Shown: positions 19,320-20,240 of the stretch, one piece after another
How the letters are laid out: each line of letters starts with the position of its first letter
Numbering within the stretch: the stretch's first letter is position 1
From: the human T2T-CHM13v2.0 reference genome, Homo sapiens
DNA: 64,000 bases
Assembly: GCF_009914755.1 (NCBI RefSeq)
Contig: NC_060935.1
Reading direction: 5' to 3' (one strand)
Made by a program: the position numbers and the translations under genes
Notes under the pieces: generated by a model
The model's input: only the letters and a program-made list of their open reading frames with translations
What the model was told of the DNA's origin: nothing
Databases searched by the model: none

Positions 19320-19460
19320 TCTATAAATGAATCCCAACTGGGTGGGGCCCCCTTTGTGGAGAGTTGCAGCTTTAGGAATTTAATCATCTTGATGATTATT
19401 GCGATTAGTTAGGAGCCCATTATCATAAAGTAATCAACCATAAGGTGATTGATTATAAAG
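19320..19460 (+). promoter_or_regulatory. Upstream diverged copy of the SSU72L promoter module with DUX4-like sites
   Basis: Aligns with 20045-20211; GAATTTAATCA 19376-19386, TAAAGTAATCA 19426-19436, TGATTGATTA 19446-19455. Confidence 0.6.
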
Positions 19461-20044
19461 TGACATGATTATCCTTATTGTTTGGAACCCCTTTCATAAT
19501 TTAAAAATCTCTTCATTTTCTTAATAAATTTTACAAACTTTTAAAGAAAAATAATTCTAAACATTGTATTTCAGTACCGAGAACTAAGACACAACTGTAC
19601 CTGAAGGCATAATAAAGTAGGCAGGGGCTTGCAGCAATTGCTGCCTTCTCTGGAGAATCATTATGATTTCAGTAATATCAAATGCAGAAAATGTTGTGTT
19701 GAATAACTCTTAAAATACCATAAGCAGATATGTTGTTGAGAATGGGATTTTTTTTGTATTGGTGAAAAATTTTGTGAATTTCTGGACAAAACTATATACA
19801 ATGGTCCTGTGATTTATGCAATTGCATTTCTCGAACACTATGAAAATTAAAACAAGCAACATCACTTGTAATTTATAATTAAATGGGGTGCAGCCTTGGA
19901 CATTGTCAATATGTTTATCATCCAATTTAATGTCTGAAGGTCACTGGAGAGTCCTATGACATGCTTGCAGGTAGCTTAATTGTCTTGGCCATTGTCAATA
20001 GCAGCCCCCATTCACTAGGAGAACCACCAGAGCAAACTCCAGAT

Positions 20045-20240
20045 TTTAAATGAATCCAGATAGGGTGGTGCCACCTTTGTAGAGAGTTACTGCTTTAGGT
20101 AGTTTAATCATCTTGATTGTTCTTGTGATGAGTTAGGAGACGATTATCACAACCTAATCAATCCAGAAGTCATGAAGTCTCCACCCACTAATTAAGGTGA
20201 CTCAATATAAACCTGCCTCCTGTGCCTCCACATTAGCTCG
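20045..20240 (+). promoter_or_regulatory. Putative proximal promoter of the left SSU72L gene
   Basis: TATAAA at 20206-20211, ~130 bp upstream of the ATG; one-mismatch DUX4-type sites TAGTTTAATCA 20100-20110 and CAACCTAATCA 20150-20160. Confidence 0.6.

What the first reader, a model, noticed from the sequence alone, without database searches (positions are those of the whole stretch)
19320..20211. Retrogene promoter built from a duplicated module with paired DUX4-type motifs and a TATA box
Seen: 19320-19460 is a diverged copy of 20045-20211. Each module has two TAAYYYAATCA-like sites 50 bp apart, a TAATCAA element and a terminal TATAAA. Known: TAAYYYAATCA is the DUX4 consensus, and DUX4 activates multicopy cleavage-stage genes, many of them intronless. 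Inference: these copies may be embryonic-genome-activation genes that supply a stage-specific Pol II CTD Ser5/Ser7 phosphatase.
Basis: partly seen in the sequence, partly recalled or inferred. Interest (0 to 1): 0.8.

Follow-up and report, generated by a model that had tools for sequence, protein, structure and literature searches.

The report
DUX4-responsive promoter of SSU72L retrogenes
The stretch is the promoter of an intronless SSU72-like phosphatase gene, built from a duplicated block carrying DUX4-type binding sites, and published tables already list this seven-copy family as DUX4-bound, DUX4-induced and expressed in 4- to 8-cell human embryos.

Summary
The duplication is real. Window 19321-19456 and 20044-20181 are 81-82% identical direct copies 723 bp apart, upstream of SSU72L5. 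The same two-module promoter occurs at only seven places in the genome: six on chr11 and one on chr7.

Each module has two DUX4-like sites 50 bp apart. In SSU72L5 none is an exact match. In the other 6 of 7 copies two sites are exact: TAATTTAATCA in the proximal module and TAATCTAATCA, the reported optimum, in the distal one. SSU72L5 alone has mutated both.

The module is not a recognisable interspersed repeat. Homology to the five-exon parent SSU72 on chr1 starts only 10 bp before the ATG, so the promoter is not parent-derived.

- PMC11735616 lists SSU72P2-P8 as DUX4-bound near the TSS, DUX4- and HSV-1-induced, and peaking at the 4-cell and 8-cell stages.
- PMC10514451 shows all seven induced by DUX4 in myoblasts, with ATAC peaks that I map onto the distal modules.

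No main text discusses them. All seven ORFs are intact and keep the catalytic Cys, Arg and Asp, but phosphatase activity is untested.

Verdict: real and correctly interpreted, but already in published data. Only the promoter anatomy is new.

The parts
19321..19456 (+). Distal copy of the duplicated promoter module (-945 to -810 from the RefSeq TSS)
   Evidence: It is present at all 7 SSU72L loci. The DUX4-induced ATAC peak hg38 chr11:4232147-4232525 maps to about window 19,217-19,597 by my inferred offset.
19376..19386 (+). Site D1, GAATTTAATCA: 1 mismatch to the DUX4 consensus at position 1
   Evidence: It has this sequence in 5 of 7 copies; the L3 and L1 copies each carry one further change.
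19426..19436 (+). Site D2, TAAAGTAATCA in SSU72L5; TAATCTAATCA, the reported optimal DUX4 site, in the other 6 copies
   Evidence: The optimum is quoted from passages of PMC12376486.
19454..19459 (+). Distal TATAAA; removed by a 15-bp deletion in 3 of 7 copies
19457..20043 (+). Spacer between the modules, found only at the 7 loci
   Evidence: 7 genome matches at 88-100% identity and none elsewhere.
20044..20181 (+). Proximal copy of the module (-222 to -85 from the RefSeq TSS)
20100..20110 (+). Site P1, TAGTTTAATCA in SSU72L5; exact TAATTTAATCA in the other 6 copies
20150..20160 (+). Site P2, CAACCTAATCA: 1 mismatch, identical in 7 of 7 copies
20206..20211 (+). TATAAA box, identical in 7 of 7 copies; 55-60 bp upstream of the RefSeq 5' end
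20266..21336 (+). SSU72L5 single-exon transcript (RefSeq model); AATAAA at 21317-21322
   Evidence: Hub annotation. The inferred DUX4 ChIP peak spans about window 20,096-20,887 with its summit near 20,315.
20337..20921 (+). Intact 194-aa Ssu72-family ORF. Parent homology begins at 20327.
29854..29991 (-). SSU72L2 proximal module, with exact TAATTTAATCA at 29925-29935 and CAACCTAATCA at 29875-29885
30578..30713 (-). SSU72L2 distal module, with exact TAATCTAATCA at 30598-30608 and GAATTTAATCA at 30648-30658
11919..21704 (.). Left arm of an inverted segmental duplication. The partner arm is 28339-38115 at 97.9% identity. The arms carry SSU72L5 and SSU72L2 tail to tail.

Best explanation
This is the TATA-containing, CpG-poor promoter of SSU72L5, one of seven near-identical copies of an old processed retrocopy of SSU72.

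The promoter is not derived from the parent gene. It holds two copies, 723 bp apart, of a roughly 135-bp module. Each module carries two DUX4-type double-homeodomain sites 50 bp apart.

Proposed mechanism:
1. DUX4, present in cleavage-stage embryos and ectopically in FSHD muscle or herpesvirus-infected cells, binds these sites.
2. It opens the chromatin.
3. It drives TATA-directed transcription of the intronless mRNA.
4. Seven copies fire together and yield a burst of SSU72-like protein that keeps the catalytic residues.

Shown by published data: DUX4 ChIP signal at the promoters, strong DUX4 induction, DUX4-dependent accessibility, and 4- to 8-cell expression.

Inferred: that the four named sites are what DUX4 uses, and that the protein acts as a Pol II CTD phosphatase. 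SSU72L5 has lost both exact sites, so it may respond more weakly than its sisters. The data cannot tell, because reads are shared among copies.
For: Sequence:
- The module duplication is established.
- Two sense-strand exact TAAYBBAATCA sites occur in 6 of 7 promoters. One is the reported optimum TAATCTAATCA (motif from PMC12376486 passages).
- The window holds only 2 exact sites in 64 kb, both in the SSU72L2 promoter. Shuffles give a mean of 0.66, so P(>=2 in 1 kb) is about 5e-5.
- The TATAAA is identical in 7 of 7 copies.
- Parent homology starts at 20327.

Published data:
- PMC11735616 Supplementary Table 4 and the Fig. 3G legend list SSU72P2-P8 among genes with DUX4 sites near the TSS. DUX4 overexpression gives 6.2-7.7, HSV-1 gives 3.0-4.1, and the 4C and 8C embryo values are positive.
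- Its ChIP file gives eight consecutive rows on chr11, of which I saw six. Fold enrichment is 5.2-20.8.
- PMC10514451 Table S2: 7 of 7 copies are up with DUX4. SSU72P5 goes from 14.9 to 580 FPKM and SSU72P2 from 33 to 1045. DUXA alone induces 0 of 7.
- PMC10514451 Table S3 has ATAC peaks that I map onto distal modules.

Protein:
- Full-length PF04722 match, E 1e-85.
- Alignment to human SSU72 (3o2s_B) over residues 2-194 with Cys12, Arg18 and Asp143 kept (residue roles recalled).
- 7 of 7 ORFs are intact, and chr7 vs chr11 dN/dS is 0.28-0.39.
Against: - SSU72L5 has 0 exact sites.
- One-mismatch matches are at chance level in the window: 20 found, 16.5 expected.
- Motif columns are not visibly more conserved than the rest. 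Of 73 single-copy changes, 5 fall in 44 of 954 columns, against 3.4 expected.
- By my inferred coordinate offset, the ChIP summits sit near TSS+49. That is 150-215 bp downstream of P1 and P2, not on them.
- The PMC11735616 methods state hg19 for ChIP. I treat the file as hg38 only because its peaks coincide with hg38 ATAC peaks of the other paper.
- The copies are 96-99% identical, so per-copy expression and peak assignment are unreliable.
- Oocyte values are also positive for 6 of 7 copies. ZSCAN4 and MBD3L2 show the same in that table.
- The RefSeq 5' end is 55-60 bp from the TATAAA rather than about 30 bp.
- No SSU72 entry was found in the held supplements of PMC12057663 (1 file) or PMC3836709 (12 of 19 files searched).
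Confidence: 0.85

Rival explanations
1. Induction is indirect or shared. Other paired-like or double-homeobox factors switched on by DUX4 (DUXA, DUXB, LEUTX, TPRX) use these TAAT/ATCA-rich modules. DUX4 only starts the cascade.
For: TAATTTAATCA is also, from recall, the DUXA-type motif. In PMC10514451 Table S2, DUXA-VP64 induces 2 of 7 copies, DUXB induces 4 of 7 weakly (5-8.5 FPKM), and platypus sDUX induces 7 of 7. Related homeodomains can therefore act here.
Against: DUX4 ChIP peaks lie at the promoters. DUXA alone induces 0 of 7. The ATAC change was measured after 12 h of induction. No TAATCC (K50-type) site lies between 18791 and 21823, a span that includes both modules.
Confidence: 0.07
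2. The module is a fragment of an ancient LTR (MaLR or ERVL type), the class DUX4 is known to use as promoters. On this reading the promoter is a co-opted retroelement rather than unique DNA. This concerns origin and is compatible with the best explanation.
For: DUX4 binds and activates MaLR and ERV LTRs that serve as promoters (PMC12376486 passages; PMC3836709 abstract). The layout of direct repeat, 590-bp spacer, direct repeat with a TATA resembles a degraded LTR pair. From memory, parts of the module resemble MaLR consensus; that was not tested.
Against: - Genome-wide searches with either module or the spacer return only the 7 loci.
- The same tool recovers an old interspersed repeat at 67-78% identity from nearby DNA.
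- A profile of 14 modules finds nothing else in 64 kb.
- A 23-nt core pattern with up to 3 mismatches gives 128 hits against 133 for the reversed control.
- NCBI masking lists no stretch of 100 bp or more inside 19320-20211 (hub note).
Confidence: 0.15
3. The motif resemblance is coincidental. A generic germline or retrogene promoter drives the genes, and the DUX4 association is an artefact of multi-mapping reads in a repeated cluster.
For: SSU72L5 has no exact site. Near-matches are at chance frequency. Mapping within 96-99% identical copies is unreliable. The ChIP summits are off the motifs.
Against: Multi-mapping moves reads among family members but cannot create family-wide signal. All 7 copies rise in two independent DUX4 systems. 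Two exact sites in 1 kb is about 5e-5 by chance. ATAC and ChIP peaks recur at mirrored positions on both palindrome arms.
Confidence: 0.03

Closest known systems
Canonical DUX4 target promoters (ZSCAN4, MBD3L2-5, TRIM43, PRAMEF, RFPL4)
   Same: These are multicopy, primate-expanded genes with clustered TAAYBBAATCA sites close to the TSS. They are silent in somatic cells, strongly induced by DUX4 and expressed at the 4-8-cell stage. SSU72P2-P8 sit in the same published table as these genes. The ZSCAN4 enhancer-promoter with four DUX4 sites is described in PMC12376486.
   Different: The four sites arise from duplication of one ~135-bp two-site module. The gene product is a paralogue of a core transcription-machinery enzyme. 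No main text in the library discusses the family: 17 papers hold SSU72L or SSU72P, 3 hold SSU72 with DUX4, and 1 holds SSU72 with genome activation and embryo. None covers this topic.
DUX4-bound MaLR/ERVL LTR promoters (Young et al. 2013, PMC3836709)
   Same: DUX4 sites upstream of a TATA create a promoter for an adjacent gene.
   Different: No similarity to any interspersed repeat was found at the sensitivity available.
Parent gene SSU72 (chr1), the Pol II CTD phosphatase of the cleavage/polyadenylation machinery
   Same: The protein is the same length and has a full Ssu72 domain. It aligns to human SSU72 over residues 2-194 and keeps the catalytic Cys, Arg and Asp.
   Different: The copy is intronless where the parent has five exons. 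The CDS is only 73-83% identical at the DNA level. The promoter and 5' UTR are unrelated. Expression is DUX4-dependent rather than ubiquitous; the parent's ubiquity is recalled, not tested. Three copies carry D140E near the active site.

Membership tests
Direct DUX4 target promoter | Match to the DUX4 motif TAAYBBAATCA close to the TSS | tested here: met
   Two exact sense-strand sites occur in 6 of 7 family promoters. It is not met for SSU72L5 itself, which has only near-matches: 1 mismatch at three sites, and 1-2 at D2 depending on the consensus used.
Direct DUX4 target promoter | DUX4 occupancy (ChIP, CUT&RUN) | tested here: inconclusive
   I read published peak lists only. The PMC11735616 legend states DUX4 sites within -1000/+500 of the TSS for SSU72P2-P8. 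Peaks on chr11 have fold enrichment 5.2-20.8. Their placement on the window relies on my inferred offset, and the genome build is ambiguous. My search of the CUT&Tag file used T2T coordinate prefixes and found no chr11 row, but the methods state hg19 for that file. That search therefore says nothing.
Direct DUX4 target promoter | Induction on DUX4 expression | tested here: met
   Published tables show it. 7 of 7 copies have values of 6.2-7.7 relative to mock in 293T cells. 7 of 7 are differentially expressed in myoblasts, log2FC 1.36-5.18.
Direct DUX4 target promoter | Loss of induction when the sites are mutated | not testable with these tools
   This needs reporter assays.
Processed retrogene | Intronless copy of a multi-exon parent at another locus | tested here: met
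   The contiguous CDS matches five separate chr1 segments spanning about 32 kb.
Processed retrogene | Poly(A) remnant and target-site duplication | tested here: not met
   No parent UTR homology and no A-run were seen after the gene. This is expected for an old copy later spread as genomic DNA. The unit shared by chr7 and chr11 runs from about 19267 to about 21616.
LTR-derived (MaLR/ERVL) promoter | Homology to an interspersed LTR family | tested here: not met
   Searches found none; one search is the positive control. No Dfam or RepeatMasker was available, so a very diverged origin is not excluded.
Ssu72 CTD phosphatase (Pfam PF04722) | Full-length domain with the CX5R loop and the catalytic Asp | tested here: met
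   PF04722 matches profile positions 1-189 of 189, E 1e-85. The motif reads VVCVSNVNRS against VVCSSNQNRS, and DIQD is kept, in the alignment to 3o2s_B. The residue roles are recalled.
Ssu72 CTD phosphatase (Pfam PF04722) | pSer5/pSer7 CTD phosphatase activity and symplekin binding | not testable with these tools
   This needs biochemistry. No complex prediction was run.

The most novel reading that the evidence does not exclude
The seven SSU72L genes are a primate-specific, DUX4-timed dosage burst of an active Pol II CTD Ser5P/Ser7P phosphatase. The burst changes CTD recycling or 3'-end processing during human genome activation. It would do the same, ectopically, in FSHD muscle and herpesvirus-infected cells, where termination is disturbed. 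Individual copies such as SSU72L5 are meanwhile being detuned by loss of their DUX4 sites. In SSU72L5, 3 of 12 copy-specific substitutions fall in the 22 bp of the two exact sites, against 0.28 expected (a post hoc count).
Probability: 0.2. Interest if true: 0.65.

Novelty: already known. Interest (0 to 1): 0.33.

Why it matters
DUX4 control and cleavage-stage expression of this family are already in published tables, so that central claim adds nothing new.

What remains open is biology that nobody has written up. The family was recently reclassified from pseudogene to protein-coding (SSU72P2 to SSU72L2, PMC12807706). It encodes a paralogue of a core CTD phosphatase and is made in bulk exactly when the human embryonic genome switches on. 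It is also made in FSHD and herpesvirus-infection models.

The anatomy given here supplies the constructs and contrasts for a direct test:
- four named sites;
- a duplicated module;
- one natural double mutant, SSU72L5;
- a conserved TATA box.

Tried and rejected
- TE origin. I searched the genome with the proximal module, the chr7 distal module and the spacer. I ran a 14-copy nhmmer profile over the window and a degenerate core pattern against a reversed control. None showed copies outside the 7 loci.
- Selection on motif columns. The count of single-copy changes shows no excess conservation, so I make no selection claim.
- Parent-derived promoter. Rejected, because homology starts at 20327.
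- K50 homeodomain (TAATCC) sites. There are none in the modules.
- The CUT&Tag peak file searched with T2T coordinate prefixes gave no chr11 row. The methods state hg19, so this was uninformative, and I had no look-ups left to repeat it.
- The supplements of PMC12057663 (1 held file) and PMC3836709 (12 of 19 files) hold no SSU72 entry.
- Files 9 and 13 of PMC11735616, and Table S4 (ChIP) of PMC10514451, were not searched or not held. They may contain further peaks.
- The first literature search was too loose and gave nothing specific.

Full report
**What is in the sequence**

Upstream of SSU72L5 (RefSeq transcript 20266-21336, CDS 20337-20921) there are two direct copies of one block.
- The repeat finder gives two adjoining families: 19324-19381 vs 20047-20104 at 81%, and 19379-19437 vs 20103-20161 at 83%. 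The spacing is 723-724 bp.
- blastn gives 100 of 123 identical, E 1e-27.
- A profile built from all module copies places them at 19321-19456 and 20044-20181.

Each copy carries two DUX4-like 11-mers exactly 50 bp apart:
- D1, 19376-19386: GAATTTAATCA.
- D2, 19426-19436: TAAAGTAATCA.
- P1, 20100-20110: TAGTTTAATCA.
- P2, 20150-20160: CAACCTAATCA.

TATAAA lies at 19454-19459 and at 20206-20211. The two TATAAA ends are not in register in a gapless alignment. A short extra match suggests they are homologous if the proximal copy carries a ~26-bp insertion: TAAGGTGATTGATTATAAA vs TAAGGTGACTCAATATAAA, 16 of 19 identical, E 0.08.

None of the four sites in this copy is an exact consensus match. One-mismatch matches are no commoner in the window than in shuffles: 20 found against 16.5 expected.

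**The paralogues decide the matter**

The module occurs at only seven loci in the assembly: six on chr11 at 4.29-4.41 Mb and one on chr7 at 125.79 Mb. Each locus has a proximal and a distal copy. The 587-bp spacer is likewise confined to these seven loci.

I aligned the seven promoters and scanned them.
- P1 is the exact consensus TAATTTAATCA in 6 of 7.
- D2 is TAATCTAATCA in 6 of 7. Passages of the review PMC12376486 quote this as the optimal and most active DUX4 site, and TAAYBBAATCA as the ChIP-derived consensus.
- P2 is identical in 7 of 7.
- D1 is unchanged in 5 of 7.
- The proximal TATAAA is identical in 7 of 7.

SSU72L5 is the one copy that has changed both exact sites: A to G in P1 and TC to AG in D2.

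The window's only two exact matches to the consensus are the P1 and D2 sites of the neighbouring SSU72L2. Shuffles give a mean of 0.66 per 64 kb. Two exact sites within 1 kb is therefore about a 5e-5 event for one ancestral promoter.

Motif columns as a whole are not visibly better conserved than their surroundings. Of 73 single-copy changes, 5 fall in 44 of 954 columns, against 3.4 expected. In SSU72L5, 3 of its 12 private changes fall in the 22 bp of the two exact sites, against 0.28 expected. That is a post hoc count and I treat it only as a lead.

**Origin of the promoter**

The gene is a processed retrocopy. Its contiguous CDS matches five separate segments of chr1 spread over about 32 kb, at 73-83% identity. 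A sensitive alignment to the parent's first exon shows homology starting at window 20327, 10 bp before the ATG. The 5' UTR, the TATA box and both modules are therefore not detectably parent-derived.

I looked for a transposable-element origin, because DUX4 is known to use MaLR and ERV LTRs as promoters (PMC12376486 passages). I found none.
- Genome searches return only the seven loci.
- The same tool recovers an old interspersed repeat at 67-78% identity from DNA 1 kb downstream of the gene.
- The 14-copy profile hits nothing else in the window.
- A 23-nt degenerate core with up to 3 mismatches gives 128 genome hits against 133 for its reversed control.

Without Dfam or RepeatMasker, a very diverged TE origin remains possible. 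I put it at about 0.15.

The promoter is AT-rich and CpG-poor: 36% G+C, with 6 CpG in 999 bp.

**Family structure**

SSU72L5 and SSU72L2 lie tail to tail on the arms of an inverted duplication. The arms are 11919-21704 and 28339-38115, at 97.9% identity.

Across the chr11 copies, the CDS and proximal promoter are about 99% identical. The region 19267-19660, which includes the distal module, splits the copies into two groups that are only 88-89% alike. The chr7 copy sides with one of the groups. This pattern suggests gene conversion over the gene-proximal part.

All seven ORFs, including the copy annotated as pseudogene SSU72P6, are intact at 194 codons. dN/dS between the chr7 and chr11 copies is 0.28-0.39.

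The protein is a full-length Ssu72 domain: PF04722, E 1e-85. It aligns to human SSU72 (3o2s_B) over residues 2-194 and keeps Cys12, Arg18 and Asp143. The roles of those residues are recalled, not tested.

**What is already published**

No main text in the library discusses these genes in this context.
- SSU72L or SSU72P: 17 papers, none on DUX4 or embryos.
- SSU72 together with DUX4: 3 papers, judged unrelated from their listings.
- SSU72 with 'genome activation' and 'embryo': 1 paper, on mouse.
- HGNC notes the renaming of SSU72P2 to SSU72L2 (PMC12807706, passage).

Two supplements hold the answer.

*PMC11735616 (herpesviruses and DUX4).* I saw passages, the Fig. 3G legend, and supplement files 1, 8 and 12.
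- Supplementary Table 4 lists SSU72P2, P3, P4, P5, P6, P7 and P8.
- Values relative to mock are 6.2-7.7 under DUX4 overexpression and 3.0-4.1 under HSV-1.
- Embryo values are positive at 4C (0.9-2.3) and 8C (1.2-4.8), and negative at morula.
- The legend says the genes shown have DUX4 binding sites within 1000 bp upstream to 500 bp downstream of the annotated promoter.
- Oocyte values are also positive for 6 of 7 copies. ZSCAN4 and MBD3L2 show the same in that table. I cannot explain this.
- The MACS2 list for DUX4 ChIP has eight consecutive chr11 rows in the cluster, of which I saw six. Examples are 4233026-4233815 (11.7-fold), 4241953-4242973 (20.8-fold), 4329567-4330582 (18.7-fold) and 4338731-4339644 (12.3-fold).

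*PMC10514451 (DUX family members in human myoblasts).* I saw method passages and Tables S2 and S3.
- All seven copies are DUX4-induced, log2FC 1.36-5.18. SSU72P5 goes from 14.9 to 580 FPKM and SSU72P2 from 33 to 1045.
- DUXA alone induces 0 of 7, DUXA-VP64 induces 2 of 7, DUXB induces 4 of 7 weakly, and sDUX induces 7 of 7.
- The ATAC_DUX4 sheet (hg38) has peaks assigned to the family, including chr11:4232147-4232525 and 4243275-4243848.

**Placing those peaks on the window (inference)**

The ATAC pair above and the ChIP summit pair (4233244 and 4242654) both have a midpoint of 4,237,949. The palindrome's centre in the window is about 25,017-25,022, which is T2T position about 4,303,020. The T2T-minus-hg38 offset is therefore about 65,070.

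With that offset:
- The ATAC peak covers window ~19,217-19,597, which contains the whole distal module.
- The SSU72L5 ChIP peak covers ~20,096-20,887, with its summit near 20,315 (TSS+49).
- The SSU72L2 ChIP peak covers ~29,023-30,045, which contains its whole proximal module.

The peaks thus include the proximal sites, but their summits sit 150-215 bp downstream of them. Low read depth (pileup 15-38) and near-identical copies limit the resolution.

The paper's methods state hg19 for ChIP. I treat the file as hg38 because its peaks coincide with the hg38 ATAC peaks. For example, ChIP 4288929-4289478 overlaps ATAC 4288873-4289161. This assumption should be checked.

I matched old to new gene names by order along the chromosome (and the hub table). 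That gives P5 = L5, P2 = L2, P4 = L4, P3 = L3, P7 = L1, and P8 = the chr7 copy. Only P2 = L2 is documented.

**Mechanism and verdict**

The best-supported reading (0.85) is as follows. DUX4 binds the paired sites of the two modules, opens chromatin and drives TATA-directed transcription of seven near-identical intronless genes. This happens in cleavage-stage embryos and wherever DUX4 is misexpressed.

Induction, occupancy near the TSS, accessibility and stage are shown by published data. Use of the four named sites, and the phosphatase activity of the product, are inferred.

One loose end is that the RefSeq 5' end lies 55-60 bp after the TATAAA rather than about 30 bp.

What is new here:
- the anatomy of the promoter;
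- its non-parental and apparently non-repeat origin;
- the observation that SSU72L5 is the degenerate copy.

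Noticed in passing
L018 (chr11 T2T 4343660-4344788, just beyond the window's right end; annotated SSU72P6): The copy annotated as a pseudogene has an intact 194-codon ORF with the catalytic residues. It is DUX4-induced from 40.7 to 715 FPKM in PMC10514451 Table S2.
   Followed up: partly
window 11919-21704 and 28339-38115: A 9.8-kb inverted duplication at 97.9% identity places SSU72L5 and SSU72L2 tail to tail around a ~6.6-kb spacer. The spacer is itself partly inverted-repeated at 86% (21515-22408 vs 27433-28338).
   Followed up: partly
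window 19267-19660 vs 19660-21336, and the matching parts of L014-L020: The chr11 copies are about 99% alike over the gene and proximal promoter. They fall into two groups only 88-89% alike over the distal promoter, and the chr7 copy sides with one group. This looks like gene conversion limited to the gene-proximal part.
   Followed up: partly
L016, L017, L019 (SSU72L4, L1, L3), codon 140: Three copies carry Asp140 to Glu, three residues before the presumed catalytic Asp143. The chr7 copy has Gln142 to Lys.
   Followed up: no
window 20206-20266: The RefSeq 5' end lies 55-60 bp downstream of the fully conserved TATAAA, not the usual ~30 bp. The true DUX4-driven start may be upstream of the model's first base.
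   Followed up: no
window ~21,940-22,400: An old interspersed repeat here matches dozens of loci at 67-78% identity. Many are within ~150 kb of chromosome ends, for example positions near 45-135 kb on several contigs.
   Followed up: no
window ~30,906-31,513 (inferred from hg38 chr11:4243835-4244442): A third, weaker DUX4 ChIP peak (5.2-fold) lies upstream of the SSU72L2 distal module. It falls over the mirror image of the Alu at 18735-19079, where no DUX4-like site was found.
   Followed up: no
L021 (chrX T2T 112798725-112799288): A further SSU72-related copy, 72% identical over the CDS only, lacks the promoter modules. It is presumably an independent, older retrocopy.
   Followed up: no
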